Assembly: GCA_005882045.1 (NCBI GenBank) | Contig: VBHO01000010.1 | Coordinates: 680-64,679 of the forward strand | Direction: 5' to 3' | DNA length: 64,000 bases | Source: Chloroflexota bacterium | GTDB lineage: Bacteria; Chloroflexota; Dormibacteria; CF-121 | Shown here: positions 27,954 through 57,513 of the stretch, piece after piece | Position numbering within the stretch: position 1 is the stretch's first letter | Layout of the letters: each line of letters starts with the position of its first letter | The notes under the pieces: model-generated | The model's database searches: none | Seen by the model: the letters and a program-made list of their open reading frames with translations, nothing else | Told to the model about the DNA's origin: nothing | Translations under genes and position numbers: made by a program

Positions 27954-30900
27954 CTACCAGCCGTACGGGCCGGCGGCGGCGGCCGAGTACTCCCGAGCCT
28001 CGCCGTGATTGACGATCGCCGCCCGGTAGAGCCGAATGTACTTCTCGGCCGAGTTGGCCCAGCTGACGTCGGTCGCCATCGCGTTGGCCTGTAGCCGCTG
28101 CCAGAGCTGTGGCTGGCGGAAGGTTTCGAGCGCCCGCACCACCTGGGCGAAGAGGTCCCAGTGGTCGTAGGCGCTGAAGACGAAACCGTTGCCGGTCTGC
28201 CGCACCGGGTCCCAGTCATCGATGGTGTCGGCGAGTCCGCCGGTGGCGCGCACGATCGGGATGGTCCCGTACCGAAGGCTGATCAGCTGGCCCAGCCCGC
28301 AAGGCTCGAACCGCGACGGCATCAGGAACATGTCGGAGCCCGCGTAGATGTGCTGGGCCAGCACCGGCTTGAAGCCGATGGTGGCGGAGACCTTCTGCGG
28401 GTTGTCGCGAGCGCTGGCGCGGAACATCTCCTCGTAACGCGAGTCGCCGGCGCCGAGCACGACGAGCTGGAGGTTCAGCCGCATCAACCCCCACATGATG
28501 TTCGCGATCAGGTCGAGCCCCTTCTGGTCGTAGAGGCGTGAGATCAGGCCGATGACCGGGATCGCCGGATCCTGCGGCAGCCCGGCCTCCTTCTGGAGCG
28601 CCAGCTTGTTCTCGACTTTCTTGTCGACGCTGCCGATGTCGTAGCGGGCGGCGATCGACGTGTCGACCGACGGGTTGAAGACTTCGTAGTCGATGCCGTT
28701 GATGATGCCGTGCAGCTTGCTGCCAAAGACCCGCAGCAGCGGGTCCATCTTCTCGCCGTACTCCGGCGTCAGGATCTCTTCCGCGTAGCGGTTGCTGACG
28801 GTGTTGATGACATCCGAGAAATAGATCCCGCGACCCAGCAGGTTGACGATGTCGTCGAGCCCTGGCATACCGGGCTTGATCAGCCCCCACTGCTCGAGAT
28901 CGGCCAGGTGGAGGGTGCCGTAACCGAAGACCCCCTGGAAGGCGAGGTTGTGAATGGTGAGAACGGTCGCGACATCGGCGAAAAACGGGTCGCCGGCATA
29001 GAGCCGAGCCAGCATGTTGGGGATGACGGCGGTGTGCCAGTCGTTGACGTGGATCACGTCGGGTTGAAAATCGAGCGGCCGCAGCATCTCGAGCGCGGCC
29101 CGGCTGAAATAGATGAAGCGCGCGTCATCGTCCCAGAAGCCGTACATGCCTTCGCGGCCGAAGAATTGCGGGTTGTCGATGAAGTAGATCGGCACCTCGC
29201 CACCGATCCGTCCCTCGAGCACGTCGGCGTTGACCGGTTGGTGCGCCAGGGGGACGCCGAGATTGGTCACGACCTTGCGTAGTCCGTACTTGTCGACATC
29301 GATGCTGCCGTAGCGGGGCATCACCACCCGGACGTCGTGCCCCATGGCCCGCAGCGCCTTCGGCAGCGCGCCCGCCACGTCGGCGAGCCCACCCACCTTG
29401 GCAAAGGGCGCGACCTCGGCCGACACCAGCAGGATCTTCAACGGCCGGTTCGGCCCGCCGTTGGCGACATCGCCCGGCACCCGGACCGCGATCGAGCCGG
29501 TTGGGGGTAACTGTTCGACCGGTTCGCCGTCCTGATGGGCGAGCGCCACCATGTGGAGGGTATCACCGGGGTCGTGGCCGAGAGCATGGAAGGGCACCGC
29601 GAACGCGATCGCGTCGGCGACCCTGGCGCGACCGGTCCAGCGAGACGTCCCGCCGCCCGGCGTCACGTCGTAAAGCTCGAGCTCGACGTCGCTCTCCCGT
29701 CGCTGCACCGTCAGTCGGAAGGCCGGCTCGAAACCGAAATCGGTGGTGGCGGGACCGCTCGGCGCCGCACTCCCGGAAAAGAACATCTCCAGCTTCATCG
29801 GGGGCGTCGCCTGGCGGTCGAGGAGGTCGAAGCGCAAATAGAGGTTGCGGTCGTCATGGCCGAACCAGATCCGGCGCACCGCACCGCGGGGTGGATGCAT
29901 GGCGCCGAAGAGCGCCGTCACGTCGACATAGCCGCCCGCGTTCCACTCGTCCTGGTCGACCCCACCGTTGAGCTTGGGGCTGATCTTCCGATCCGGCCGC
30001 TTGGTGGCCGCTCCCTCAGCGGCCCTCACGATCGGCTGGTAGAGACTCGCCGGTGGGCGTTCGCCGAGCGACATATATATGTTGCGCAGGTGAAGCCGGA
30101 AGAGGCTGTCCCAGATCTGGTCCATGCCGGAGTCGTGCGAGCGCCCGAACCACCAGAACCAATCGCTGCCTTCCGCGATCAGCACTTCTCGGCGCGCCGC
30201 TTTCAGTTGCTCGTGGTCGATGGCATCGCGCTCGCGCTCGCTGAAGAGATCGCGGGCGTCGGCCAGCATGTCCCAGGCGGCGTTGTGCTCCTGGTCACCG
30301 ACCCAGGTGTCGAACGAGGCGTTGATCCAGGACCCCGGATGAATGCGTGACAGCGAGCGGTCCGCCGGGAACTCCGAGAGAAACTCCGAAACGGTCACGG
30401 TCTTCAGTTCGGGCTCGCGGCTCAAGCGCGCGTAGAGCGAACGCAGGAACGGGTTACCGTTCGCTTCGTAGAAATCCCAGCAATTTTCGCCGTCGAGGGC
30501 GATCACGGCGAGGAAGGGGCTGTCCTTCTGGCGTTGCCCGATGGCCCTGAGTCGATCGACCAGGTCCTTGGCCGCCTCGTCGGGGGCCGAATTCTGATAC
30601 TCGAAGCCGATCGCGTTGGACAGGCGCCCGTCGCGGAACAGCAAGTGAATGGGCGGCGAACCACCGGCCTGCACGCGATAGGGCGCATAGAGCACCTCGG
30701 GTTGCATCACCTGCCCCTCGCCGTCGCGCGTGACCGAGCTCGAGAGCGAGCGGGCCAGGATGGCCTCATCGCTGAGCATCCACTCGATACCCTGGTCGGC
30801 CGCGAGTCGCACCACGTCCTCAGAGATGGCCTCTTCCGGTGGCCAGAGGCCGCGTGGTCGAATCCCGAAGCTGCGGGTGTGTGCCTCGATGCCACGACGC

Positions 30901-31658
30901 AGCTGTTCGGCGGCATCCTCCGGATGCGCGAAGGGCCGGTGGGGCATGGCCAGGTCCGGTCGCGCCACCCGCGCGATGCCGATGTCGGCGATCAGCGGGA
31001 GGATCGGGTGGTAGGTGGGGCTGGTGATCAGCTCGGCCTGGCCACGGTCCTGGACCTCGCGATAGGTGGGCAGCACCTTGCTCAGCAGTTGGAGCTGCGT
31101 GTCAAAGACGGGCCCCTTGTCGGCTTCCGCGAAGTCGCGGCCTCGCCGCACCAGCTCGGCGATGACGGGATCGCGCTCCATCACTTCCGGGCCGATCCAG
31201 GAGAGGTTGAACCACACCTGCAGGTCGCGCAGCTCGGCATCGCTGAAGAGGCGGGCCAGGTCAAGGGAACCGCGCGGCCAGGCCTGCTCGCGCTTTCGGA
31301 CCAGCTCGGCGTACCGCGGGTAATCCCGGACCCGACGGATCTGGCTCGACTCGGTCATCCAGCGCGCCACGAAGGCGCGCTCGTCCGCGCTCAGCTCCGC
31401 GACGGGACGGCGGGCAAGCTCGAGGTACACGTCGGAGAAACGACCGTCCGCATAGTCCTGCACCTGGGCGACCAGCGCCGGCACGAGGTTGAAGGTCTGC
31501 TTGATGGCCGGGTAGTCGGCGAGCAGCGCCGGCATCTTGTAGTAGTCCTTGGCGCAACGCAACCGTACCCAGGGGAGGAGGAACTGGTTTTGGAGGTCAT
31601 CCTTGTAATACGGCTGGTGCATGTGCCAGACGAACGCCACATGCAGGGGTCGCGTCAC
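27954..31658 (-). CDS. 1234-aa fusion protein: N-terminal GH57 glycoside hydrolase domain (alpha-amylase/4-alpha-glucanotransferase/branching-enzyme family) + C-terminal GT5 glycogen/starch synthase domain (GlgA-like).
   Basis: N-terminus MTRPLHVAFVWHMHQPYYKD (GH57 HxHQP motif). From about residue 745, KILLVSAEVAPFAKVGGLADVAGALPKALRAMGHDVRVVMPRYG (GlgA KxGGL motif) continues through a full GT5 domain. Single uninterrupted frame. Confidence 0.8.
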   Translation of the reverse strand: MTRPLHVAFVWHMHQPYYKDDLQNQFLLPWVRLRCAKDYYKMPALLADYPAIKQTFNLVPALVAQVQDYADGRFSDVYLELARRPVAELSADERAFVARWMTESSQIRRVRDYPRYAELVRKREQAWPRGSLDLARLFSDAELRDLQVWFNLSWIGPEVMERDPVIAELVRRGRDFAEADKGPVFDTQLQLLSKVLPTYREVQDRGQAELITSPTYHPILPLIADIGIARVARPDLAMPHRPFAHPEDAAEQLRRGIEAHTRSFGIRPRGLWPPEEAISEDVVRLAADQGIEWMLSDEAILARSLSSSVTRDGEGQVMQPEVLYAPYRVQAGGSPPIHLLFRDGRLSNAIGFEYQNSAPDEAAKDLVDRLRAIGQRQKDSPFLAVIALDGENCWDFYEANGNPFLRSLYARLSREPELKTVTVSEFLSEFPADRSLSRIHPGSWINASFDTWVGDQEHNAAWDMLADARDLFSERERDAIDHEQLKAARREVLIAEGSDWFWWFGRSHDSGMDQIWDSLFRLHLRNIYMSLGERPPASLYQPIVRAAEGAATKRPDRKISPKLNGGVDQDEWNAGGYVDVTALFGAMHPPRGAVRRIWFGHDDRNLYLRFDLLDRQATPPMKLEMFFSGSAAPSGPATTDFGFEPAFRLTVQRRESDVELELYDVTPGGGTSRWTGRARVADAIAFAVPFHALGHDPGDTLHMVALAHQDGEPVEQLPPTGSIAVRVPGDVANGGPNRPLKILLVSAEVAPFAKVGGLADVAGALPKALRAMGHDVRVVMPRYGSIDVDKYGLRKVVTNLGVPLAHQPVNADVLEGRIGGEVPIYFIDNPQFFGREGMYGFWDDDARFIYFSRAALEMLRPLDFQPDVIHVNDWHTAVIPNMLARLYAGDPFFADVATVLTIHNLAFQGVFGYGTLHLADLEQWGLIKPGMPGLDDIVNLLGRGIYFSDVINTVSNRYAEEILTPEYGEKMDPLLRVFGSKLHGIINGIDYEVFNPSVDTSIAARYDIGSVDKKVENKLALQKEAGLPQDPAIPVIGLISRLYDQKGLDLIANIMWGLMRLNLQLVVLGAGDSRYEEMFRASARDNPQKVSATIGFKPVLAQHIYAGSDMFLMPSRFEPCGLGQLISLRYGTIPIVRATGGLADTIDDWDPVRQTGNGFVFSAYDHWDLFAQVVRALETFRQPQLWQRLQANAMATDVSWANSAEKYIRLYRAAIVNHGEAREYSAAAAGPYGW

Positions 31659-43977: not shown

Positions 43978-44102
43978 TGCTGGGGACTATAGCTGACGCT
44001 CGATCGAGCCCCGATCCATTCCCGTGACAGCGCCGTTACGGCCCCTTCACTGGTCCTTAACAGTGCCACCGATATCGTGATCCCCGCTTCCCCTTCCTTG
44101 AA

Positions 44103-44137
44103 GGCCGAGACCCCAATCTCGGCCTTTCTTCTTTTTT
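44103..44137 (+). terminator. Intrinsic terminator-like hairpin + T-tract, plus-strand oriented.
   Basis: GGCCGAGA-CCCCAA-TCTCGGCC perfect 8-bp stem followed by TTTCTTCTTTTTT. No plus-strand CDS lies upstream. Confidence 0.5.
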
Positions 44138-44153
44138 GCGCCCGGCGCTTGGG

Positions 44154-44954
44154 TCACATCCGGGCCCCCTCGAGCGCGCGCTGACAGTTGCAACTCGGGG
44201 TGGTTGGGATGATCGGGATCAGGGTGGCCAGCAGGTCGCGAACCCGGCTGATGTTGCCGCCCAGCACGCGCATCACGTCGTGCGCTTGAACGGCCGCCAC
44301 CTCGGGCGCTTCCTCGAGCCCGGCATCGTAGTCGGTCACCAGCGAGAGGTTGAGGTAGCACATCTCCAGCTCGCGCGCCAGGATCACCTCTGGGTACTGG
44401 GTCATGCCCACGATGTCCCAGCCCATTCGACTGAACCAGCGGCTCTCGGCTCGCGTCGAGAAGCGCGGCCCCTGCACCACGACCACGGTTCCCGAAGGTT
44501 GAAACCGCAGCGATTGTTGTTCCGCGATGCGACCGGCCAGCGAACGCAGCTCCGGACAGTACGGGTCGGCGGCGCTGATGTGAACGACATCGGGTCCCGG
44601 ATAGTAGGTGTCCGCTCGACCGGTGGTGCGATCGAAGAACTGGTCACAGATCACCAGGTCTCCCGGATGCAGGTCAGGCTTCAGGCTGCCCACCGCGGAC
44701 GGGCCGACGATCCGCTTGACGCCAAGTTCGTGCATGGCCCAGACGTTGGCGCGGAAGTTGACGAAGGGCGCGGAGACCTCGTGGTTGGGTCCATGACGCG
44801 GCAGAAACGCCACGCTGCGTCCCCCAAGCTCGGCCAGCGCGATCGACCCGCTGGGTGGGCCATAGGGCGTCGCGATCTCGATCTCGTCGGCGGCGTCGAG
44901 CCACTCGTAGAAGCCGGACCCGCCGAAAATGCCGATCTCCGCCGTGGGCGACAT
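44154..44954 (-). CDS. mtnP: 5'-methylthioadenosine / purine nucleoside phosphorylase (MTAP family).
   Basis: N-terminus IGIFGGSGFY, ...RHGPNHEVSAPFVNFRANVWAMHELGV..., MTQYPEV. About 266 aa. Confidence 0.85.
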   Translation of the reverse strand: MSPTAEIGIFGGSGFYEWLDAADEIEIATPYGPPSGSIALAELGGRSVAFLPRHGPNHEVSAPFVNFRANVWAMHELGVKRIVGPSAVGSLKPDLHPGDLVICDQFFDRTTGRADTYYPGPDVVHISAADPYCPELRSLAGRIAEQQSLRFQPSGTVVVVQGPRFSTRAESRWFSRMGWDIVGMTQYPEVILARELEMCYLNLSLVTDYDAGLEEAPEVAAVQAHDVMRVLGGNISRVRDLLATLIPIIPTTPSCNCQRALEGARM

Positions 44955-45751
44955 CAGCTCCGGACGTGGCCGCGTGGCGAGACCTGTTCAGCGTAGCGAG
45001 CGAGGTCGTTGATGCGCGGCTGCGAGGAGCACACCGGGCAGTCGGCGTCGCGCGGAAACCTGGTGATGCGGGTGTCGCCGCGCAGGCCATCGTGCTGAAA
45101 GATGCGGCCGCTCAGCGGCGTGCCCACGTTGAGAATCACCTTCAGCGCTTCCTCCGCCTGCACGCTTCCGACGACGCCGGTCGCCGCCCCGATGATGCCG
45201 GCCTCCTCGCAGGTTTCGATATCGGCGTCTTGGGGGGGATCGCGGAAAAGGCAGCGCAGACACGGTCCGTCAGGGAGCACCGTCGTGACCTGGCCGCCCC
45301 AGCGCAGGACTGCGCCATGCACCAGCGGTTTGCGAAGCAGGACGGCCGCATCGTTCAAGAGGAACTTCGTCTCGAACGAATCAGTGGCATCGACGACGAC
45401 GTCGTACTCCGCCACAATGGCCTCCACGTTCGATGCGCGAACGTTCTCCTGGCGAGCATCCAGCCGGAGGGCGGAGTCGAGGATCAGTAGTCGGCCGGCC
45501 GCCGCTTCGACCTTGGGCCGGCCCACGTCACAGTCCTCGAAGAGGATCTGCCGGTTGAGATTCGAGAGTTCAACCTGCTGGTCGTCGATCAGGCCGAGCC
45601 TCCCCACCCCGGCCGCCGCCAGGTAGAGGGCGACGGGCGAACCCAAACCCCCGAGGCCGACGATCGCGACCGAGGCACGTTCGAGCCGCTGCTGCCCGGC
45701 CTCGCCGACCTCAGCGAGGATGCGTTGACGATGATGCCGCTCGGCGGTCAT
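44954..45751 (-). CDS. ThiF/MoeB-family E1-like adenylyltransferase with CxxC...CxxC zinc motif (no rhodanese domain).
   Basis: HHRQRILAEVGEAGQQRL...VAIVGLGGLGSPVALYLAAAGVG (glycine-rich ATP loop). CLRC ... CPVC. Confidence 0.8.
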   Translation of the reverse strand: MTAERHHRQRILAEVGEAGQQRLERASVAIVGLGGLGSPVALYLAAAGVGRLGLIDDQQVELSNLNRQILFEDCDVGRPKVEAAAGRLLILDSALRLDARQENVRASNVEAIVAEYDVVVDATDSFETKFLLNDAAVLLRKPLVHGAVLRWGGQVTTVLPDGPCLRCLFRDPPQDADIETCEEAGIIGAATGVVGSVQAEEALKVILNVGTPLSGRIFQHDGLRGDTRITRFPRDADCPVCSSQPRINDLARYAEQVSPRGHVRS

Positions 45752-46566
45752 CGGCGTCCCTCCGCCGCCGCGGCGACGGCGCGGTAATCGGCGAGCGATG
45801 TGATGCTGGGTCGGTCACCACAGGTTGGACACGCGGGATTGCGACGGTAGCGCACCTCACGAAAGGTCATCGCCATGGTGTCGTGCAGCAGCACGCGGTT
45901 CACCAGCGGCTCGCCCGTACCCGTGATTTGTTTGATGGTCTCGGCGGCCTGGATGGTGCCGATGATGCCGGGTAGCGCGGCCAGGACTCCGACCTGTTCG
46001 GATTCTTCGATCGCGCCGGCCGGTGGCGGTTCCGGATAGAGACACCGATAGCAGCCACGACCCGGGGTGAAGACCGTCACCTGCCCCTCGATGCGAAAGA
46101 TGCTGCCGTGCACCAGCGGCTTGCGCAGCAGGTAGGCGGTATCGCTGAGCAGGTAGCGGGCACGGAAAGTGTCCGTGCCATCGACGATCACGTCGTAGCG
46201 TTGCAGCAGCTCCATCGCGTTGTGTTCGTCGACGGTGGCCTCGACCGCGTCGACCTTGATACCAGGATTCAAGCCGCCGACGGTTCGCGCCGCACCGTCG
46301 ACTTTGGAACGGTTCAGTCCCGCCATCGAATGGATCACCTGTCGTTGCAGGTTCGAGAGCCGGACGTGGTCGTGGTCGGCGAGACCGATGGTGCCCACGC
46401 CCGCCGCTGCCAGGTAGAGCGCCACCGGCGAACCGAGCGCGCCGACGCCCACGATCAGCACGCTCGAGCGCAGCAGTCGCCGCTGACCGGCGGGCCCGAT
46501 CTCAGCCAGCGCCAGATGGCGGGCGTACCGCTGTCGCTGTTCGGCCGTCAGCGATGCCTCGGACAT
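45748..46566 (-). CDS. Second ThiF/MoeB-family E1-like adenylyltransferase (tandem paralog).
   Basis: RYARHLALAEIGPAGQRRL...VLIVGVGALGSPVALYLAAAGVG. CYRC ... CPTC. ATGA overlap with the downstream paralog. Confidence 0.8.
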   Translation of the reverse strand: MSEASLTAEQRQRYARHLALAEIGPAGQRRLLRSSVLIVGVGALGSPVALYLAAAGVGTIGLADHDHVRLSNLQRQVIHSMAGLNRSKVDGAARTVGGLNPGIKVDAVEATVDEHNAMELLQRYDVIVDGTDTFRARYLLSDTAYLLRKPLVHGSIFRIEGQVTVFTPGRGCYRCLYPEPPPAGAIEESEQVGVLAALPGIIGTIQAAETIKQITGTGEPLVNRVLLHDTMAMTFREVRYRRNPACPTCGDRPSITSLADYRAVAAAAEGRR

Positions 46567-47030
46567 TACGCGCCCCGCGGCTTGGCCGGCACGGCGTGAA
46601 AGATGCCGTGGAAGACCTGCGGCTGCGCCCGCCGCAAGCGAAGGCAGTCGGCCAGGGTATGCGCGGCGAAGACATCGCGCGCGGCCTGCTCGGCTTTCTC
46701 GGTGACCTGCGCCAGCACGCGGCTGTCTCCGGTCTCCGCTCCGTCCGGCTGGCGGCTCCTCACGCCGTCACCCTCGAGGCAGGCGATGACTTCGTCGAGA
46801 CGGATGTCTTCCGGGCTGCGGGCCAGCACATGTCCGCCGTGCGGGCCGCGGGTCGACTGCACCAGGCCGGCGCGGCGCAGCGTCATCAGCACCTGGTCAA
46901 GGAACGGCCCGGGGATCACCTGCCGGCGCGCGATCTCGCCGCTTTGCAGCGCGCCCTGTCCAGCATTGGCCGCCAGTTCCACGATGGCCCTGACTCCATA
47001 CTCGGTTTTCATCGACAGGCGCATTCGCAC
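46566..47030 (-). CDS. Rrf2-family transcriptional regulator.
   Basis: N-terminal wHTH MRLSMKTEYGVRAIVELA...SGEIARRQVIPGPFLDQVLMTLRRAGLVQSTRGPHGG. First gene of the MoeB-MoeB-MTAP operon. Confidence 0.75.
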   Translation of the reverse strand: MRMRLSMKTEYGVRAIVELAANAGQGALQSGEIARRQVIPGPFLDQVLMTLRRAGLVQSTRGPHGGHVLARSPEDIRLDEVIACLEGDGVRSRQPDGAETGDSRVLAQVTEKAEQAARDVFAAHTLADCLRLRRAQPQVFHGIFHAVPAKPRGA

Positions 47031-47076
47031 TCAGGATCCCTCAATAGTTGATCGGACCAGTCAAGTATAGGAGATT

Positions 47077-47529
47077 TTAGAGGGAAATTCGGAGCGCGAG
47101 CACGACAAAAAGTAGACCGAGGACGACCAGCGGCACGGTGGTCGCAATCAGGCTCAGACTGCGCAACCCGATCGCGCGTCGCTCCTCGTTCGAGGAGCGC
47201 ACCCGACTGCGCAGCACGAAGCCCTCGAACGCGAGCAGCAACGACGACCCGCCGAGCCCGAGCGCCACCATGACGATCGCCCAGATCGTGCTCGGCGTCC
47301 CCTCCTGTTGCGAGAAGGCATTGAAACTGGCGGCCAGCACACCCACGAGCGCGACGAGCACGCCGAGAGGGACGAGCGTGAGGTTGATGAAGCGCATCGA
47401 ACGGCCCGGCTCCGGGCGGCGCGAAAACTGCCAGGCCGAGACCAGCACGAAGGCCATGTAGGCCACGATCACGACGTAGAAAAACAGCGGCGTCAACACT
47501 TCGCCAAAGCTGAGAGCCGCAGGAATCAC
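47077..47529 (-). CDS. Hypothetical 4-TM membrane protein.
   Basis: Hydrophobic helices only, no motif. Confidence 0.45.
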   Translation of the reverse strand: MIPAALSFGEVLTPLFFYVVIVAYMAFVLVSAWQFSRRPEPGRSMRFINLTLVPLGVLVALVGVLAASFNAFSQQEGTPSTIWAIVMVALGLGGSSLLLAFEGFVLRSRVRSSNEERRAIGLRSLSLIATTVPLVVLGLLFVVLALRISL

Positions 47530-47690
47530 GCGATCAATTTAGTCTTTAGCGCCCCTCGGGGCGCCGCCCTTTCGGGCGTAAGCTGCGCCTTGCCGAGTGC
47601 ACCGGGCCCGCCGGCCCACGCGAGCGGCGCTTTAGTGCCAGGCGAGCGTTTGAGGCGTTCGTTGTGCGGCTCGACGCCGCCAATGCGCGG

Positions 47691-48059
47691 TTAGTTCAAT
47701 ATGCGGTAGATGTTGTTGATCACGGCAAACGTCGTGATCCACGCCGCAATCAGGTAGGCGTTCCAAACGGCACTGCTTCGACGCCCGTAGAGGAGCAGAA
47801 ACGCCACCAGCATGCCGACCAGGCCGAGCTTGAGGCCGTAGACGGCCAGCTCCCCGTTGTGGGCGATGATCCAGGCGGCCGCGCCATTGAGCTCCTGGCG
47901 CCCCTGCGAGAGGCCGATGTGGGTGGTGGTCACGTCGAGCAGCTGCGCCGTGCAGAACCCGCCCAGGATGATGGCTTTCTTGCGGGTGGAGACGTCTTTC
48001 TTGCCGAAGATTTTCCCCCGTCTGCTCAGCGCGCTGCCCACGTCCCCAATCCCCAGCAT
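47691..48059 (-). CDS. Hypothetical small membrane protein.
   Basis: 122 aa, 3 hydrophobic segments, no motif. Confidence 0.4.
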   Translation of the reverse strand: MLGIGDVGSALSRRGKIFGKKDVSTRKKAIILGGFCTAQLLDVTTTHIGLSQGRQELNGAAAWIIAHNGELAVYGLKLGLVGMLVAFLLLYGRRSSAVWNAYLIAAWITTFAVINNIYRILN

Positions 48060-48201
48060 GGAAAAACTCTATAGCGGCGTTATCAGAAAAGCAACGTCCA
48101 AGTTGGCGCTTTCTGAATTCCGTGGCCTTCCTTCATCGAACTGCCCGGATTATATGGGCAGTTTTAGGACTCGTCCAGAGCCAAGTTTCGCGACCCTGCG
48201 G

Positions 48202-48777
48202 TCAGCCGGCTTTTTTGCTGTCGCCCATGATCTCGCGACGCCGCGTGAAGAGGTACGGGATGGCGATCAGTAAACCGCCGACGACCAGGACGCCCGCTCC
48301 GATGCGCAGGTATAGCGTCCAGTCCGACGGGGGATCGAGGGCCGGGTCATAGACCGTGCGGGCATTGAGCTTGAAGCTGAGCGCACCCACCGTGCCGGTC
48401 AGGCTCCAGATGCCGACCGTGGTCTCCGCGTGGTTCCAGCGCTGGTCCTCATTGACCGCCGGCAGGCTGGCACAGGGCCAGACGCCGGCCGTTGGCAGAT
48501 GAACCGCGATGGGCGGCCGAGGCGTGGCGGCCTTTGGTTGGGCGGCGAAGCGAAAGGGCTTAGCTGGTTTGCTCATGTCGAAGAGCACGACGTCCTGGCC
48601 GGTCTGGTTCTGGAGGAGCAGGTCGCAACCGCCGGTCGAGCCCTCGATGGTCAGGCCGGGCGTCTTGGGCACGATGGTGTCCACGACCGTCTTGAACGGC
48701 TGATCTTCAGCCAGGGCGCTTGCCGAGAACAACAGCAGGGCGCCCGCGGGGGCAAGGGCCGCAACCAGCCGCTTCAC
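48202..48777 (-). CDS. Hypothetical secreted protein with signal peptide and C-terminal TM anchor.
   Basis: Signal peptide MKRLVAALAPAGALLLFSASALA. C-terminal VLVVGGLLIAIPYLF followed by basic residues. Confidence 0.5.
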   Translation of the reverse strand: MKRLVAALAPAGALLLFSASALAEDQPFKTVVDTIVPKTPGLTIEGSTGGCDLLLQNQTGQDVVLFDMSKPAKPFRFAAQPKAATPRPPIAVHLPTAGVWPCASLPAVNEDQRWNHAETTVGIWSLTGTVGALSFKLNARTVYDPALDPPSDWTLYLRIGAGVLVVGGLLIAIPYLFTRRREIMGDSKKAG

Positions 48778-54351: not shown

Positions 54352-54477
54352 CCGCATTGGGCGGGCTGCACAAAAAGGTGGTCCGCAACTCGTCGTTCCG
54401 GACCGATGACGCGGCCGGCAGCCGCCCCTAGGATCGAGACAGTCGGATCACTGCGTTCACACGGAGGGAAACTCTTT

Positions 54478-55935
54478 ATGGCGATTGATCAGGGCGTGCG
54501 CTCGAAAAAGGAAACCAAGGCAGATGCCCAATCCGTCATCGATCTCGCCCACAAGCAGGGGTTGAAGATCGTCGACCTCAAGTTCATCGACTTGATTGGG
54601 ACCTGGCAGCACTTCTCGATTCCCGTTCAGGAGCTGTCCAGGGACCTCTTCAGCGAGGGCATCGGCTTTGACGGCTCCAGCATTCGCGGCTTCCAGCACA
54701 TCCACGAGAGCGACATGCTGCTGATCCCGGATCCGTCGACGGCGAAGGTCGACCCGGTGCTGAAGGTGCCGACACTGACCATCAACTGCGACGTGATCGA
54801 CCCGATCACCCGCGAGCCTTATTCTCGCGATCCGCGCTACGTCGGCAAGAAGGCGGAGGCCTTCCTACTCTCCACCGGGATCGCCGACACCAGCTTCTTC
54901 GGCCCGGAATTGGAGTTCTACATCTTCAATAGCATGCGGTTCGACCAGAACCAGTTCTCGGGCATGTACGAGATCGACTCGGTGGAAGGCGTCTGGAACT
55001 CGGGCAAGAACTCCGAGCCGAACCAGGCCTACCGGCCGCGCTACAAGGAAGGCTATTTCCCGGTGCCACCGACTGACAAGCTGCAGGACCTTCGTTCGCA
55101 GATCGTCCTCAAGCTGATCGAGGCGGGCGTCGACGTCGAGGTCCATCACCATGAGGTCGGGACCGCCGGCCAGACCGAGATCGACATGCGCTACGACACG
55201 CTGGTCAACATGGCCGACAAAGTGATGATGTACAAGTACGTCGTCAAGAACGTCTGTGCCCAGAACGGGTTCGTGGCGACGTTCATGCCCAAGCCGCTCT
55301 TCATGGACAACGGGTCGGGGATGCACACACACCAGAGCCTCTGGAAGGATGGCATGCCGCTGTTCTATGACAAGGCCGGTTATGCGGGCATCAGCGACAT
55401 GTGCCGCTGGTACATCGGCGGCCTGCTCAAGCACGCGCCGTCGCTGCTCGCCTTTGCCGCGCCGACCACCAACTCGTACCGCCGTCTGGTGCCCGGATAT
55501 GAAGCGCCCATCAACCTGATCTATTCGAAGCGCAACCGCAGCGCGTGCGTGCGCATCCCGATGTATTTCGATAACCCCAAGGCCAAGCGACTCGAGTTCC
55601 GGACGCCCGACCCGTCGTGCAACCCGTACCTCTCGTTTGCCGCCTGCCTGATGGCCGGCCTCGACGGGGTCATCAACAGGATCGAGCCGCCCAAGCCGAT
55701 CGACGAAGATCTGTACGAGCTGGAGCCCGAGCTGAAGCGCCAGGTGAAGAGCACGCCCGGCTCGCTGGTCGAAGTCCTCGATGCGCTGGAGATCGACAAC
55801 GATTACCTGACCCGGGGTGGGGTGTTCACCACCGACCTGATCGAAACCTGGATCGACTACAAGCGCGTGCGCGAGGTCGATCAGGTGGCGCTCCGGCCGC
55901 ATCCCTGGGAGTTCTACCTCTACCACGACATCTAG
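54478..55935 (+). CDS. glnA: Glutamine synthetase, type I.
   Basis: DLKFIDLIGTWQHFSIP (beta-grasp N-domain), GPELEFYIFN, MPKPLFMDNGSGMHTHQSLW, NSYRRLVPGYEAP, and possible adenylylation-loop Tyr (DEDLYELEPE). SD GGAGGGAA precedes the ATG. Confidence 0.9.
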   Translation: MAIDQGVRSKKETKADAQSVIDLAHKQGLKIVDLKFIDLIGTWQHFSIPVQELSRDLFSEGIGFDGSSIRGFQHIHESDMLLIPDPSTAKVDPVLKVPTLTINCDVIDPITREPYSRDPRYVGKKAEAFLLSTGIADTSFFGPELEFYIFNSMRFDQNQFSGMYEIDSVEGVWNSGKNSEPNQAYRPRYKEGYFPVPPTDKLQDLRSQIVLKLIEAGVDVEVHHHEVGTAGQTEIDMRYDTLVNMADKVMMYKYVVKNVCAQNGFVATFMPKPLFMDNGSGMHTHQSLWKDGMPLFYDKAGYAGISDMCRWYIGGLLKHAPSLLAFAAPTTNSYRRLVPGYEAPINLIYSKRNRSACVRIPMYFDNPKAKRLEFRTPDPSCNPYLSFAACLMAGLDGVINRIEPPKPIDEDLYELEPELKRQVKSTPGSLVEVLDALEIDNDYLTRGGVFTTDLIETWIDYKRVREVDQVALRPHPWEFYLYHDI

Positions 55936-56027: not shown

Positions 56028-56156
56028 ATGGAGCAACCAGCAGAGAGAGACAAGCCCTGGCGACCCGGTGACCACCCGCGGCCGGGCCCGTCCTGGGGCG
56101 AGGACGATCGCCCACGGACGGACGTGCCCACGGAGGCCCCCAACGGCGAAGACTGA
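56028..56156 (+). CDS. Candidate small ORF (42 aa, Pro/Asp/Glu-rich) with a strong SD; alternatively the SD serves the downstream GS paralog.
   Basis: AAGAAGAGGAG then 8 nt then ATG. Translation MEQPAERDKPWRPGDHPRPGPSWGEDDRPRTDVPTEAPNGED. Overlaps the annotated start of the second GS in another frame. Confidence 0.3.
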   Translation: MEQPAERDKPWRPGDHPRPGPSWGEDDRPRTDVPTEAPNGED

Positions 56157-57513
56157 CGCGGCCGCGGGCCGCGCGAGTTCGCTCGGCATCGAGCGGGCGC
56201 TGGAGCGACTGTCCGAACGTGGGATCCGCTTCCTCGACCTGCGCTTCGTCGACGTGCTGGGGACGGTGAAGAGCATCACCATCCCGGCACAGCGGCTGGC
56301 GCACGCCGTCCGCAACGGTGAGTGGTTCGACGGCTCGTCGGTGGAGGGCTTCGCCCGGGTCTTCGAGAGCGACATGTTCCTTCGTCCCGACCTCGACACC
56401 CTGACGATCGGCGACCCCGACGGTGTGCTCGGCGCCCAGGTGATCTGCGATCTACTCACGCCCGACGGCGAGCGCTTCGCCGGCGACCCGCGGGGCGTGC
56501 TGGCGCGGGCGCTGGCCGAGGCCGCCGCCCTCGGCTTCGACTACGCCGTCGCGACGGAGCTCGAGTTCTTCCTGCTGAACACCGACGCCGCCAACGGCAG
56601 TGTTCGACCCGGCCGGCACGACCGGGCCAGCTACTTCGACCATCCGGTCGACGTCGCCAGCGATGTCCGCCAGGAGATCGTCAGCGCGCTCGACCACCTC
56701 GGCATCACGGTCGAGGCGAGCCACCACGAGGTCGCGGCCGGACAGTACGAGCTCGACCTCGCGCTTAGCAACGCGCTGAAAAGCGCCGACCATCTCGTGA
56801 CCCTCAAGCACGCCGTCAAGGCAGTGGCGCAGCGACGGGGCTTGCTGGCGACCTTCATGCCCAAGCCGATCTTCGGCGCGGCGGGCTCCGGGATGCATAC
56901 CCATCAGGTGCTCAGCGGCGTGGGGCGGGAATCGAACGCGTTCTACGACCGCGCCGACCAGTACCAGCTCTCGCCCGTTGCCAAGCACTTCATCGCCGGC
57001 CAGCTGGCGCATGCCCGCGCGCTGTGCGCGCTCGTCGCGCCGCTGGTCAACTCCTACAAGCGCTTCGTGCCCGGCTTCGAAGCCCCGGTGGCGATCAGCT
57101 GGGCGCAGGTGAATCGCTCGGCGCTGATTCGAGTCCCGCGCGCCGGAATCGGTGATCGCGCCGCGATCCGGATCGAGTTTCGCGCCCCCGACCCCTCGTG
57201 CAATCCCTATCTCGCCTTCGCCGCCATGCTGCACGCCGGCCTGTCGGGGATCCGACAGAAGCTGCCGCTGCCGCCGCCCGTGGAGGAGAATCTCTACGCC
57301 TTCGACCCGGAGGCGCTCGCCCGCCACCAGCTCGGCCAGCTCCCCAGGTCGCTCGCCGAAGCACTGCGCGACCTGCGCCAGGACGACGTGATGCGCGACG
57401 CGCTGGGTGTCCACCTCCTGGAACGTTTTATCGAGGCGAAGGAGATGGAGTGGCAGAGCTATGAGAAGCAGGTCACCGGCTGGGAGCTCGACGCCTACCT
57501 CGAAGCCTACTAG
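56068..57513 (+). CDS. Glutamine synthetase family protein (second paralog; GlnA2/GlnA3-like).
   Basis: IRFLDLRFVDVLGTVKSITIP, ELEFFLLN, MPKPIFGAAGSGMHTHQ, NSYKRFVPGFEAP. GTG at 56068 is the only canonical in-frame start and gives an Arg-rich N-terminal extension of about 35 aa with no SD. Confidence 0.8.
   Translation: MTTRGRARPGARTIAHGRTCPRRPPTAKTDAAAGRASSLGIERALERLSERGIRFLDLRFVDVLGTVKSITIPAQRLAHAVRNGEWFDGSSVEGFARVFESDMFLRPDLDTLTIGDPDGVLGAQVICDLLTPDGERFAGDPRGVLARALAEAAALGFDYAVATELEFFLLNTDAANGSVRPGRHDRASYFDHPVDVASDVRQEIVSALDHLGITVEASHHEVAAGQYELDLALSNALKSADHLVTLKHAVKAVAQRRGLLATFMPKPIFGAAGSGMHTHQVLSGVGRESNAFYDRADQYQLSPVAKHFIAGQLAHARALCALVAPLVNSYKRFVPGFEAPVAISWAQVNRSALIRVPRAGIGDRAAIRIEFRAPDPSCNPYLAFAAMLHAGLSGIRQKLPLPPPVEENLYAFDPEALARHQLGQLPRSLAEALRDLRQDDVMRDALGVHLLERFIEAKEMEWQSYEKQVTGWELDAYLEAY

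What the first reader, a model, noticed from the sequence alone, without database searches (positions are those of the whole stretch)
44154..47030. Rrf2-regulated operon with two tandem MoeB/ThiF E1-like paralogs and MTAP but no visible sulfur-carrier (ThiS/MoaD/CysO) gene
Two about 265-aa ThiF/MoeB-type adenylyltransferases, each with a CxxC...CxxC zinc site and no rhodanese domain, are ATGA-coupled to each other and to a methylthioadenosine phosphorylase. An Rrf2 regulator sits upstream, overlapping by 1 nt. E1-like enzymes normally act on a small beta-grasp carrier ending in GG. No such gene of 60 aa or more is present in the operon, and the intergenic spaces are essentially zero. The tandem duplication plus MTAP, an S-adenosylmethionine by-product salvage enzyme, hints at a sulfur-transfer or methionine-salvage-linked pathway, or a carrier encoded elsewhere or as an ORF under 60 aa.
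Basis: inference. Interest (0 to 1): 0.5.

Follow-up and report, generated by a model that had tools for sequence, protein, structure and literature searches.

The report
Two sulfur-carrier activators plus MTAP operon
A soil Dormibacterota bacterium keeps a regulator, two intact E1-like sulfur-carrier-activating enzymes and a methylthioadenosine phosphorylase in one tight operon; the carrier proteins are not nearby, which is common for such enzymes, so this looks like ordinary sulfur housekeeping with one mildly unusual enzyme variant.

Summary
On the minus strand, Rrf2 (46566-47030), E1A (45748-46566, 272 aa), E1B (44954-45751, 265 aa) and MTAP (44154-44954) overlap by 1, 4 and 1 nt. The order is conserved in every Candidatus Dormibacterota relative recovered. 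No ThiS/MoaD/CysO-like carrier, JAB protease, CysM or rhodanese lies anywhere in the 64 kb window.

Neither E1 is degenerate. Both keep the adenylation residues and the four zinc cysteines in about 120 orthologues each, and both are under purifying selection. They are old paralogs (46% identity, not sisters), not a recent tandem duplication.

E1A descends from CysO-linked E1-rhodanese fusions of other phyla, with Chloroflexota closest. It has lost the rhodanese domain and the crossover-loop cysteine: 0 of 123 orthologues have Cys, against 85 of 85 E1s compared from elsewhere. E1B keeps that cysteine and scores best against ThiF.

E1 genes far from their carrier genes are normal (M. tuberculosis moeZ/cysO, E. 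coli moeB/moaD). The likeliest reading is a cluster-less Rrf2 repressor controlling a sulfur-housekeeping operon whose carriers are encoded elsewhere. An E1A-E1B heterodimer is possible but untested.

Interest is low to moderate.

The parts
47044..47068 (.). Palindromic operator-like site ATACTTGACTGGTCCGATCAACTAT, directly upstream of rrf2 and overlapping a TTGACT -35-like hexamer (47059-47064, minus strand).
   Evidence: It is the only site in the 64 kb window with at least 19 of 25 matches to the IscR type-1 consensus ATASYYGACTRWWWYAGTCRRSTAT. It scores 21 of 25 on both strands, and none of 30 mononucleotide shuffles reached 21. The consensus wording was verified in PMC3899308. The TTGAC-N7-GTCAA core is kept in L007, L088/L090 and L008, and in L009 it is a perfect palindrome, TTGACTCC-G-GGAGTCAA. 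Binding by this Rrf2 is inferred, not shown.
46566..47030 (-). Rrf2-family winged-helix regulator without an Fe-S cysteine triad.
   Evidence: PF02082 scores 106 bits and TIGR00738 110.5 bits against a cut-off of 73.3. The best specific model is CymR at 74.9 bits, far below its cut-off of 195. The alignment shows no C-x-C-x-C cluster motif, unlike the Rrf2 proteins next to acidobacterial cysO clusters. dN/dS is 0.05-0.08.
45748..46566 (-). E1A: a MoeB-type adenylyltransferase with no rhodanese domain and no crossover-loop cysteine.
   Evidence: PF00899 scores 243 bits, and the NF004281 MoeB subfamily model 270.8 bits against a cut-off of 266. The best solved structure is E. coli MoeB 1jw9 at 178 bits, ahead of ThiF at 161. 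R14, D62, N70, R73, K86, D130 and the four zinc cysteines are kept in 122-123 of 123 orthologues. The position of MoeB C187 is Ser in 119, Ala in 3 and Pro in 1, and G41 is Ala in 123 of 123. Its nearest relatives are Chloroflexota CysO-linked E1-rhodanese fusions.
44954..45751 (-). E1B: a ThiF-like adenylyltransferase that keeps the crossover-loop cysteine. It forms a clade specific to Dormibacterota.
   Evidence: PF00899 scores 256 bits. TIGR02356 (ThiF) scores 242.5, below its cut-off of 275 but above E1A's 226.8. The best solved structure is E. coli ThiF 1zud at 170 bits, ahead of MoeB at 160. All adenylation residues, the four zinc cysteines and the loop Cys are present in 122 of 122 orthologues. 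Outside the clade, the best identity among 1.84 billion cluster representatives is 53% or less.
44154..44954 (-). S-methyl-5'-thioadenosine phosphorylase (MTAP/MtnP), translationally coupled to E1B.
   Evidence: NF005876 scores 330.9 bits against a cut-off of 306, TIGR01694 275.8 against 274.85, and PF01048 144 bits. The TGATG junction is shown. It is conserved downstream of E1B in L007, L009, L088 and L091.
44087..44137 (+). Conserved hairpin (44100-44127) with a C/U-rich 5' flank and a T-run on the plus strand, 17 nt beyond the MTAP stop codon. It marks the operon's 3' boundary and may also be the 3' end of an antisense small RNA.
   Evidence: A terminator-like hit on the plus strand. The 3' ~55 nt are identical in the window, L007, L088 and L091 despite dS of 0.4-1.3 in the flanking genes. 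The same module is inverted in L009. The fold z-score is -4.8, and no Rfam family matches.

Best explanation
This is a phylum-specific sulfur-housekeeping operon of Candidatus Dormibacterota, rrf2-E1A-E1B-mtnP.

How it most likely works:
- The Rrf2 protein has no Fe-S cysteine triad, so it is CymR-like in that respect. It most likely represses the operon from the palindrome at 47044-47068, which overlaps the promoter.
- E1A and E1B are both working ATP-dependent adenylyltransferases. Each activates the C-terminal glycine of ThiS/MoaD/CysO-family beta-grasp carriers encoded outside this 64 kb window.
- They probably divide the carriers between them, as mycobacterial MoeZR and MoeBR, or E. coli MoeB and ThiF, do.
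- E1A descends from CysO-linked E1-rhodanese fusions and has lost both the rhodanese domain and the loop cysteine. It would act as a pure MoeB-style adenylyltransferase on MoaD and/or CysO, with sulfur delivered in trans by a separate sulfurtransferase or cysteine desulfurase.
- E1B keeps the ThiF-type loop cysteine and would handle a ThiS-like or second carrier.
- MTAP recycles methylthioadenosine, and possibly 5'-deoxyadenosine. It is co-regulated because it belongs to the same sulfur and methionine economy, not because it takes part in the E1 chemistry.

Shown here: gene identities, intact catalytic residues, conserved gene order, absence of a carrier in 64 kb, and the ancestry of E1A.

Inferred: the assignment of carriers to each E1, the trans sulfur donor, Rrf2 binding and its signal, and the reason MTAP is co-transcribed.
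For: - Family assignments and curated cut-offs are.
- Both E1s keep R14, D62, N70, R73, K86, D130 and the four zinc cysteines in 123 (E1A) and 122 (E1B) orthologues.
- dN/dS is 0.08-0.13 for both in the unsaturated comparisons.
- The reciprocal best solved structures are MoeB for E1A and ThiF for E1B.
- In 50 of 77 other-phylum genome loci (L010-L086), E1A's relative (46-56% identity) has a CysO-like gene nearby, in most cases immediately upstream, and most of those E1s carry a C-terminal rhodanese domain.
- A typical cluster is cysM-mec(JAB)-cysO-E1+rhodanese-rrf2 (L043).
- The loop Cys is present in 85 of 85 compared E1s and 122 of 122 E1B orthologues, and in 0 of 123 E1A orthologues.
- ThiF Cys184 in the crossover loop forms the acyl disulfide with ThiS, whereas MoeB leaves sulfuration to a separate sulfurtransferase (PMC12596934).
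- MoeZR serves CysO, MoaD1 and MoaD2, while a second E1, MoeBR, serves MoaD only (PMC3227635).
- The same gene order and start/stop overlaps are seen in five to six Dormibacterota lineages with 60-100% protein identity.
- There is a unique IscR-type-1-like palindrome upstream of rrf2.
- A Nitrospirae cluster gives a parallel for two E1s next to a SAM-cycle enzyme: SAH hydrolase, CysM-like enzyme, E1, ThrC-like enzyme, ThiS, E1, JAB.
Against: - No Dormibacterota carrier gene was found by any route, so 'encoded elsewhere' is unverified (searches were dead ends).
- The assignment of carriers to E1A and E1B rests on small score differences (178 against 161 bits, and 170 against 160) and on one residue.
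- The neighbour-joining tree is star-like and places E1B nowhere informative.
- Tight ATGA coupling of two paralogous subunits of a normally homodimeric enzyme, together with complementary loss of the cysteine in one of them, fits a heterodimer as well as two separate enzymes.
- This Rrf2 is far below the CymR cut-off (74.9 against 195 bits), so its signal is unknown.
- No mechanistic reason for the MTAP linkage was demonstrated.
Confidence: 0.6

Rival explanations
1. E1A and E1B form an obligate heterodimeric E1. MoeB and ThiF enzymes are dimers in which each active site is completed by the partner subunit. Here the two translationally coupled paralogs would pair. E1A, with no loop cysteine and no rhodanese domain, would act as a non-thiol subunit. 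E1B would supply the only crossover-loop cysteine for acyl-disulfide or thioester chemistry. This would be a bacterial counterpart of the eukaryotic SAE1/SAE2 or NAE1/UBA3 enzymes.
For: - The 4-nt ATGA (or GTGA) overlap between the two genes is conserved across lineages.
- The two genes are always adjacent in the loci recovered.
- The cysteine loss is strictly asymmetric: 0 of 123 in E1A against 122 of 122 in E1B.
- Both paralogs have lost the N131 that is otherwise invariant (85 of 85 compared E1s). It is Ser/Thr in E1A and Ala/Ser in E1B, a shared derived change.
- ThiF's active site is built from two monomers (PMC12596934).
Against: - E1A keeps every ATP- and Mg-binding residue and the arginine finger. 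The inactive subunit of eukaryotic heterodimeric E1s has lost its adenylation site (my own knowledge).
- No prokaryotic heterodimeric MoeB/ThiF enzyme turned up in the ThiF-like enzyme review searched here, and I know of none.
- Operon neighbours with overlapping start and stop codons need not form a complex. MTAP and Rrf2 are coupled in the same way.
- Nothing here tests a physical interaction.
Confidence: 0.15
2. One of the two E1s does not act on a beta-grasp carrier at all. It would instead adenylate a short peptide or a small molecule, in the manner of the RiPP-type ThiF-like enzymes MccB and PaaA or the tRNA enzyme TcdA. The substrate might be encoded by an ORF shorter than 60 aa.
For: - No carrier lies nearby.
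- E1A has lost the cysteine that every relative compared retains.
- ThiF-like enzymes do have such alternative substrates (PMC12596934).
Against: - Both proteins are full-length MoeB/ThiF-type enzymes with the zinc-binding Cys4 motif, which TcdA lacks.
- Neither has an extra N-terminal peptide-binding (RRE) domain such as MccB and PaaA carry. They are 272 and 265 aa and are aligned end to end with MoeB and ThiF.
- Scores against MccB, PaaA and TcdA are 46-61 bits, against 160-178 bits for MoeB and ThiF.
- E1A is 47-57% identical to E1s that sit next to CysO.
- The operon's intergenic spaces are zero, and no small ORF with coding character is present.
Confidence: 0.05
3. The E1s belong to a ubiquitin-like protein-conjugation or anti-phage system (SAMP/TtuB-type conjugation, or a CBASS Cap2-like E1-E2), with MTAP acting as a nucleoside-cleaving effector.
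For: - The SAMP-activating E1 model UbaA is the second-best NCBIfam hit (309.9 bits for E1A and 258.3 for E1B).
- PADLOC E1-E2 models match the Rossmann core.
Against: - The UbaA scores are far below its cut-off of 450.
- The PADLOC matches score 73 bits or less and cover only the shared nucleotide-binding part. There is no E2 domain and no JAB protease, and MTAP and the neighbouring proteins have no defence-family hit.
- MTAP passes the housekeeping equivalog cut-offs.
- The operon sits in conserved core-genome synteny between glutamine synthetase and enoyl-CoA hydratase genes on one side and glycosyltransferase genes on the other, not in a variable island.
Confidence: 0.02

Closest known systems
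Mycobacterial MoeZR and MoeBR (Rv3206c and Rv3116) with CysO, MoaD1 and MoaD2
   Same: One genome has two MoeB-type E1 paralogs with different carrier ranges (PMC3227635), and by my own knowledge the carriers are encoded elsewhere. E1A's nearest relatives are exactly this kind of CysO-linked E1.
   Different: Both Dormibacterota proteins lack the C-terminal rhodanese domain. E1A also lacks the crossover-loop cysteine. The two genes are adjacent and translationally coupled rather than dispersed. Both keep the two CxxC motifs, which that paper says most MoeZ-type proteins lack.
E. coli MoeB (1jw9) and ThiF (1zud/1zfn)
   Same: The size (about 250-270 aa), the fold, the adenylation residues and the Zn-Cys4 site are the same, and neither has a rhodanese domain. 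E1A scores best against MoeB and E1B best against ThiF. E1B keeps the equivalent of ThiF Cys184.
   Different: Identity is only moderate (phmmer scores 160-178 bits). E. coli MoeB itself still has Cys187, whereas E1A never does. In E. coli thiF sits in the thiCEFSGH operon next to thiS (my own knowledge). Here no partner gene is near either E1.
cysM-mec-cysO-E1(rhodanese)-rrf2 clusters of Acidobacteriota/Vicinamibacterales (for example L043)
   Same: An Rrf2 regulator adjoins an E1 of the same clade as E1A.
   Different: Those clusters contain the carrier, the JAB protease and the PLP sulfhydrylase. Their Rrf2 has the three-cysteine Fe-S motif, which the Dormibacterota Rrf2 lacks. They have one E1 and no MTAP.
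Nitrospirae two-E1 cluster (L052): SAH hydrolase, CysM-like enzyme, E1, ThrC-like PLP enzyme, ThiS, E1, JAB
   Same: Two rhodanese-less E1 paralogs lie within 3 kb of each other beside an enzyme of the SAM and methionine cycle.
   Different: The carrier, two PLP enzymes and a JAB protease are present, and the E1s are not adjacent. Both keep the loop cysteine. Neither is a close orthologue of E1B.
Bacillus subtilis CymR regulon
   Same: CymR is a cluster-less Rrf2 repressor of cysteine and methionine metabolism genes, including an operon with the MTA/SAH nucleosidase gene mtnN (my own knowledge). CymR is the best specific NCBIfam model for this Rrf2.
   Different: The score is far below the CymR equivalog cut-off (74.9 against 195 bits). 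No CysK partner or signal was tested. The operator resembles an IscR type-1 site rather than the CymR box.

Membership tests
ThiF/MoeB/HesA E1-like adenylyltransferases (PF00899) | Rossmann-type ATP-binding domain matching PF00899 above the gathering score | tested here: met
   E1A scores 242.9 bits and E1B 256.1 bits, against a cut-off of 28.1.
ThiF/MoeB/HesA E1-like adenylyltransferases (PF00899) | Adenylation residues (MoeB R14, D62, N70, R73, K86, D130) and the Zn-binding Cys4 (C172, C175, C244, C247) | tested here: met
   These are conserved in 122-123 of 123 E1A orthologues and 122 of 122 E1B orthologues. The functional roles of these positions are from my own knowledge of the MoeB-MoaD structure.
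ThiF/MoeB/HesA E1-like adenylyltransferases (PF00899) | ATP-dependent acyl-adenylation of a carrier's C-terminal Gly-Gly | not testable with these tools
   This needs a biochemical assay, and no candidate carrier has been identified.
MoeB (molybdopterin-synthase adenylyltransferase) | Score above the curated NCBIfam MoeB cut-offs | tested here: inconclusive
   E1A passes the subfamily model NF004281 (270.8 against 266) but not the equivalogs TIGR02355 (207 against 376.55) or NF006444 (345 against 449). E1B passes none (243.5 against 266).
MoeB (molybdopterin-synthase adenylyltransferase) | Genomic or functional link to moaD, moaE or moeA | tested here: not met
   No MoaD-like ORF was found in the six-frame searches, and no Moco-related Pfam family was found among the window genes scanned.
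ThiF (ThiS adenylyltransferase of thiazole synthesis) | Score above the TIGR02356 cut-off | tested here: not met
   E1B scores 242.5 and E1A 226.8, against a cut-off of 275.25.
ThiF (ThiS adenylyltransferase of thiazole synthesis) | Crossover-loop cysteine (E. coli Cys184) that forms the acyl disulfide with ThiS | tested here: met
   Met for E1B (Cys in 122 of 122 orthologues). Not met for E1A (Ser 119, Ala 3, Pro 1 of 123). The role of the residue is taken from PMC12596934.
ThiF (ThiS adenylyltransferase of thiazole synthesis) | Neighbourhood with thiS, thiG or thiH/thiO | tested here: not met
   There is no ThiS-like ORF and no thiamine-pathway family among the window genes scanned.
CysO-activating E1-rhodanese fusion (MoeZR/MoeBR type) | C-terminal rhodanese domain carrying the persulfide cysteine | tested here: not met
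   Both proteins end after the E1 domain (272 and 265 aa, PF00899 only). There is no rhodanese anywhere in the window. Most relatives of about 380-400 aa have one (L043).
CysO-activating E1-rhodanese fusion (MoeZR/MoeBR type) | Adjacency to cysO, mec (JAB) or cysM | tested here: not met
   None of these is in the window, L007-L009, L088 or L091. A CysO-like gene is nearby in 50 of 77 other-phylum genome loci.
CysO-activating E1-rhodanese fusion (MoeZR/MoeBR type) | Closest sequence relatives are CysO-linked E1s | tested here: met
   Met for E1A only. Its nearest neighbours are L011, L077 and L015 (Chloroflexota, CysO immediately upstream) at 54-56% identity. E1B has no close relative outside the phylum.
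Rrf2 transcription factors | Rrf2 winged-helix domain above the cut-off | tested here: met
   PF02082 scores 106.2 against 30, and TIGR00738 110.5 against 73.3.
Fe-S-sensing Rrf2 (IscR/NsrR/RirA type) | Three clustered cysteine ligands about 90-105 residues from the N-terminus | tested here: not met
   That region holds a single cysteine, which is not conserved in L009. The IscR, NsrR and RirA equivalog scores are all far below their cut-offs. The IscR and CymR reference sequences in the alignment were recalled from memory.
CymR (cysteine metabolism repressor) | Equivalog-level similarity | tested here: not met
   NF047409 scores 74.9 against a cut-off of 195. It resembles CymR only in lacking a cluster and in its sulfur-gene context.
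MTAP (S-methyl-5'-thioadenosine phosphorylase) | Equivalog-level similarity | tested here: met
   NF005876 scores 330.9 against 306, and TIGR01694 275.8 against 274.85.
Heterodimeric E1 (SAE1/SAE2 or NAE1/UBA3 type) | One subunit has a degenerate, inactive adenylation site | tested here: not met
   E1A and E1B both keep all adenylation residues.
Heterodimeric E1 (SAE1/SAE2 or NAE1/UBA3 type) | The thiol-chemistry cysteine is present in only one of two paralogous subunits | tested here: met
   The loop Cys is present in E1B only.
Heterodimeric E1 (SAE1/SAE2 or NAE1/UBA3 type) | Physical 1:1 complex of the two paralogs | not testable with these tools
   This needs co-purification or multimer modelling. 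The structure tool here takes single chains only.
Anti-phage E1-E2 (CBASS Cap2-like) | Fused E2 domain and a partner JAB protease or CD-NTase | tested here: not met
   The PADLOC matches score 73 bits or less and cover only the Rossmann part of the models. There is no JAB and no defence hit in the neighbouring genes.

The most novel reading that the evidence does not exclude
E1A and E1B are the two subunits of an obligate asymmetric bacterial E1. One subunit descends from an E1-rhodanese fusion and has shed both its thiol-bearing elements. It is paired with a paralog that supplies the only reactive cysteine. That would be a prokaryotic, independently evolved counterpart of the eukaryotic heterodimeric E1 enzymes, serving carriers encoded elsewhere in the genome.
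Probability: 0.13. Interest if true: 0.65.

Novelty: new member of a known kind. Interest (0 to 1): 0.27.

Why it matters
Taken at face value, the locus adds a phylum-specific operon layout to the known sulfur-carrier and E1 systems. It also documents a clade of MoeB-type enzymes that has uniformly given up the crossover-loop cysteine, which every relative compared here retains. That natural experiment bears on what the cysteine is for in MoeB-type as opposed to ThiF-type enzymes.

It would matter more if the two coupled paralogs turned out to be a heterodimer. That would give a simple bacterial model for how asymmetric E1 enzymes evolve.

For genome annotation the practical lessons are two. 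An E1 gene without a nearby carrier gene is not an anomaly. And screens for carriers that end in Gly-Gly miss most CysO-type carriers, which carry C-terminal extensions or are fused to their E1.

Tried and rejected
- **ORFs ending in Gly-Gly.** I scanned for ORFs of 35 aa or more ending in GG across the window. Only shadow ORFs in non-coding frames came up.
- **Direct searches for carriers and partner enzymes.** I ran tblastn with four reference carriers recalled from memory. I also ran a CysO profile HMM and phmmer over all six-frame ORFs of the window and Dormibacterota loci. Nothing was found. tblastn for CysM, Mec/JAB, rhodanese, ThrC-like enzyme and SAH hydrolase also found nothing.
- **Locating the Dormibacterota carriers elsewhere.**
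  - A homologue search with a Chloroflexota CysO returned 120 hits, none labelled Dormibacterota.
  - A cluster-name look-up of ten unnamed hits returned no names.
  - The soil-abundant hit P0276 turned out to sit in a canonical JAB-ThiS-E1+rhodanese cluster, so it does not come from this lineage.
- **Widening the set of Dormibacterota loci.** The metagenome scan with E1A was swamped by the conserved CYRCLYPE pattern from other phyla. It added only two Dormibacterota loci.
- **Inferring E1B's function from the gene context of its loosest tree neighbours.**
  - P0258, P0218 and P0159 sit on contigs too short to be informative.
  - P0136 lies in an E1, ThrC-like PLP enzyme, ThiS, PLP enzyme, NIL cluster. 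This is suggestive only, because the tree is star-like.
- **Riboswitch or known RNA.** No Rfam family matches in or around the operon.
- **Anti-phage reading.** Rejected.
- **Pseudo-E1 or degenerate fragment.** Rejected.
- **Recent tandem duplication.** Rejected.
- **Literature.** I found no paper on Dormibacterota sulfur-carrier metabolism.

Full report
**What is there**

Four co-directional genes lie on the minus strand:
- an Rrf2-family regulator, 46566-47030;
- E1A, a ThiF/MoeB-family protein, 45748-46566, 272 aa;
- E1B, a second ThiF/MoeB-family protein, 44954-45751, 265 aa;
- a phosphorylase, 44154-44954, 266 aa.

Both E1s match PF00899 only, at 243 and 256 bits, and have no rhodanese domain. 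The phosphorylase passes two curated MTAP equivalog cut-offs (NF005876 330.9 against 306, TIGR01694 275.8 against 274.85).

The junctions are TAATG, ATGA and TGATG, giving overlaps of 1, 4 and 1 nt. The E1B/MTAP junction is therefore not ATGA, a minor correction.

A 176-nt gap with a strong hairpin (44100-44127) separates MTAP from the next gene. That gene is an NAD-dependent epimerase, which heads a glycosyltransferase cluster.

**Source and conservation**

Exact copies of E1A occur on soil-metagenome contigs. The nearest genomes are Candidatus Dormibacterota MAGs:
- L007, 94% identity;
- L008, 72%;
- L009, 66%, labelled Chloroflexi.

All of these, together with L088-L091, keep the order rrf2-E1A-E1B-mtnP. 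Where the contig reaches far enough they keep the epimerase too, and the same start/stop overlaps.

About 120 orthologues of each E1 at 72-95% identity were recovered, and those with NCBI names are Dormibacteraeota.

**Is a carrier really absent?**

Yes, within reach of the data.
- No credible ORF of 35 aa or more ends in GG anywhere in the 64 kb.
- tblastn with E. coli ThiS and MoaD, M. tuberculosis CysO and T. thermophilus TtuB finds nothing in the window or in the Dormibacterota loci. The same query picks up CysO-like genes in 50 other loci. These four query sequences were recalled from memory.
- A CysO profile HMM and phmmer with --max over every six-frame ORF of 30 aa or more give only noise, at E above 0.5.
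- CysM, JAB/Mec, rhodanese, ThrC-like enzyme and SAH hydrolase are also absent.
- The window genes scanned with Pfam include no thiamine, Moco, cysteine or methionine gene. They cover:
  - phosphate uptake and polyphosphate;
  - glycogen-type glucan enzymes;
  - protein-O-mannosyltransferase-like membrane proteins;
  - two glutamine synthetases;
  - enoyl-CoA hydratases.
- No riboswitch or other Rfam family is present near the operon.

**Are both E1s real enzymes?**

I aligned 123 E1A orthologues, 122 E1B orthologues and 85 other E1s to E. coli MoeB numbering. The other E1s comprise 83 from other phyla plus E. coli MoeB and ThiF.

The arginine finger R14, the residues D62, N70, R73, K86 and D130, and the four zinc cysteines are essentially invariant in both paralogs.

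dN/dS is 0.08-0.13 for both in the unsaturated comparisons, like the neighbouring genes. Neither is a fragment or a pseudo-E1.

**What distinguishes them**

*The crossover-loop cysteine.* The cysteine equivalent to MoeB C187 and ThiF C184 is Cys in 85 of 85 other E1s and in 122 of 122 E1B orthologues. It is never Cys in E1A, where it is Ser in 119, Ala in 3 and Pro in 1.

*Other changes in E1A.* E1A has GxGAxG in place of GxGGxG in all 123 orthologues. It also has a relaxed loop sequence, IEESEQVGV against the consensus VPSCAEGGV.

*Why the cysteine matters.* In E. coli ThiF this cysteine forms the acyl disulfide with ThiS. MoeB leaves sulfuration to a separate sulfurtransferase (PMC12596934).

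*Best solved structures.* The best PDB matches are reciprocal:
- E1A: MoeB 178 bits, ThiF 161;
- E1B: ThiF 170 bits, MoeB 160.

**Ancestry**

*E1A.* E1A is 47-57% identical to E1s of many other phyla. In 50 of the 77 other-phylum genome loci (L010-L086) a CysO-like gene lies nearby, in most cases immediately upstream. Most of those E1s are 380-400 aa long and carry a C-terminal rhodanese domain. A typical cluster is cysM-mec(JAB)-cysO-E1+rhodanese-rrf2 (L043). The nearest neighbours by distance are Chloroflexota CysO-linked fusions (L011, L077, L015). E1A therefore descends from a CysO-type E1-rhodanese enzyme and has lost both the rhodanese domain and the loop cysteine.

*E1B.* E1B is an isolated Dormibacterota clade. 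In a search of 1.84 billion cluster representatives the score falls from 456 bits within the clade to 258 bits or less, at 53% identity or less, outside it.

*Relationship between the two.* They are 46% identical. They are not sisters in a neighbour-joining tree, although that tree is star-like. 'Tandem duplication' is therefore not an apt description.

**Regulator**

The Rrf2 protein lacks the three-cysteine Fe-S motif. The Rrf2 proteins next to acidobacterial cysO clusters have it. Its best specific model is CymR, but at 74.9 bits against a cut-off of 195.

Directly upstream, at 47044-47068, lies the palindrome ATACTTGACTGGTCCGATCAACTAT, which overlaps a TTGACT hexamer.
- It is the only site in the window with at least 19 of 25 matches to the IscR type-1 consensus. 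It scores 21 of 25, and none of 30 shuffles reached 21. The consensus was verified.
- Its TTGAC-N7-GTCAA core is conserved, and it is a perfect palindrome in L009.

Autoregulation from this site is inferred, not shown.

**Comparison with known systems**

E1 genes far from their carrier genes are normal.
- Mycobacterial MoeZR sulfurates CysO, MoaD1 and MoaD2, while a second paralog, MoeBR, serves MoaD only (PMC3227635). By my own knowledge those carrier genes lie elsewhere on the chromosome.
- E. coli moeB is likewise unlinked to moaD (my own knowledge).
- A Nitrospirae cluster (L052) places two rhodanese-less E1s beside an SAH hydrolase, two PLP enzymes, a ThiS-family carrier and a JAB protease. 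This is a loose precedent for two E1s next to a SAM-cycle enzyme.
- B. subtilis CymR, a cluster-less Rrf2, represses an operon containing the MTA/SAH nucleosidase gene (my own knowledge). That parallels an Rrf2 controlling an MTA-cleaving enzyme.

**Most likely mechanism**

The Rrf2 repressor controls a sulfur-housekeeping operon.

E1A acts as a pure MoeB-style adenylyltransferase on MoaD and/or CysO. Sulfur is delivered in trans by a separate sulfurtransferase or cysteine desulfurase.

E1B acts ThiF-like on a ThiS-type or second carrier. MTAP salvages methylthioadenosine.

The assignment of carriers to each E1 is the weakest step, because it rests on score differences of 10-17 bits and on one residue.

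**Main rival**

E1A and E1B could form a heterodimer.

Points in favour:
- the conserved ATGA coupling;
- the strictly asymmetric cysteine loss;
- a shared derived loss of N131 in both paralogs;
- the two-subunit active site of ThiF.

The main point against is that E1A keeps a complete adenylation site. Nothing here tests a physical interaction. I put this reading at about 0.13-0.15.

The peptide or RiPP-type and the anti-phage or conjugation readings are unlikely.

**A methodological point**

Of 50 CysO-like genes next to E1A's relatives, only 2 end at Gly-Gly. Another 29 have extensions of 1-80 aa, and 19 are fused in frame to the E1.

**Verdict**

The missing carrier is not anomalous, and the genes belong to well-known families.

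The uniform loss of the crossover-loop cysteine, together with the rhodanese domain, in E1A is the only mildly unusual feature. So is its tight coupling to a cysteine-bearing paralog.

I could not find where the Dormibacterota carriers are encoded. A whole-genome scan would settle that.

Noticed in passing
window 43995-44140, plus strand (core 44087-44137): There is a conserved non-coding element in the gap between MTAP and the epimerase gene. A C/U-rich stretch resembling an anti-Shine-Dalgarno sequence (CGCTTCCCCTTCCTTGAA) is followed by an 11-bp GC-rich hairpin and a T-run on the strand antisense to both flanking genes. The 3' ~55 nt are identical in the window, L007, L088 and L091, although the flanking genes have dS of 0.4-1.3. 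The fold z-score is -4.8. It is single-copy in the window and matches no Rfam family. It is a candidate small RNA or a bidirectional terminator.
   Followed up: partly
L009 12476-12499, compared with window 44087-44109: In the deepest-branching relative the same hairpin plus C/U-rich module sits at the same locus but is inverted. There it reads as an ordinary intrinsic terminator of the MTAP operon.
   Followed up: partly
L012, L022, L023, L026, L027, L030, L031, L038, L040, L048, L049, L051, L055, L056, L060, L065, L074, L081, L086: In 19 of 50 loci the CysO-like carrier is fused in frame to the following E1, with or without a rhodanese domain, giving proteins of up to about 490 aa. In 29 more loci the carrier has 1-80 extra residues after Gly-Gly. 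Only 2 end at GG. All the others would need JAB-type processing.
   Followed up: partly
window 44154-46566, compared with L007 and L088: Identity is mosaic along the operon. Against L007, E1A is 94% identical, E1B 89% and MTAP 81%. Against L088, E1A is 82%, E1B 91% and MTAP 88%. This suggests recombination between Dormibacterota populations with a breakpoint near the E1A/E1B junction.
   Followed up: no
L052 7571-13873: A Nitrospirae cluster reads SAH hydrolase, CysM-like PLP enzyme, E1, ThrC-like PLP enzyme with a NinF-like zinc ribbon, ThiS-family carrier, second E1, JAB protease. It looks like a combined carrier-dependent cysteine and homocysteine pathway. P0136 (L172) has a related layout: E1, ThrC-like enzyme, ThiS, PLP enzyme, NIL domain.
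   Followed up: partly
L009 Rrf2 (about 9501-9983), compared with window 46566-47030: The L009 Rrf2 orthologue has two cysteines aligned with the first and third Fe-S ligand positions of IscR-type regulators. The window lineage has none there, which suggests stepwise loss of a cluster site within the phylum.
   Followed up: no
window 27954-31658, minus strand: A 1234-aa fusion joins a GH57 glycoside hydrolase domain to a starch/glycogen-synthase (GT5 plus GT1) domain. It lies next to a second GH57 gene and a GT4 gene.
   Followed up: no
window 16979-19552, minus strand: An 857-aa fusion joins a nucleotidyl transferase with a hexapeptide-repeat domain to a phosphoglucomutase/phosphomannomutase.
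   Followed up: no
window 54406-55935 and 56068-57513, plus strand: Two glutamine synthetase genes lie in tandem, of 509 and 481 aa. The arrangement is conserved in the related loci.
   Followed up: no
window 47077-48777, minus strand: Three small genes lie just upstream of rrf2 and are conserved in synteny: a 150-aa membrane protein with no family, a 122-aa DUF5658 protein, and a 191-aa protein with no family. Only 46 nt separate the last of them from rrf2, so read-through transcription into the operon is possible.
   Followed up: no
L174 1529-4051 and 6211-7419: In the unrelated Chloroflexi-like locus carrying the CysO homologue P0276, SufB is interrupted by an intein (Hint plus LAGLIDADG domains). 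An IS605 OrfB/TnpB gene sits directly upstream of the JAB-ThiS-E1+rhodanese cluster.
   Followed up: no
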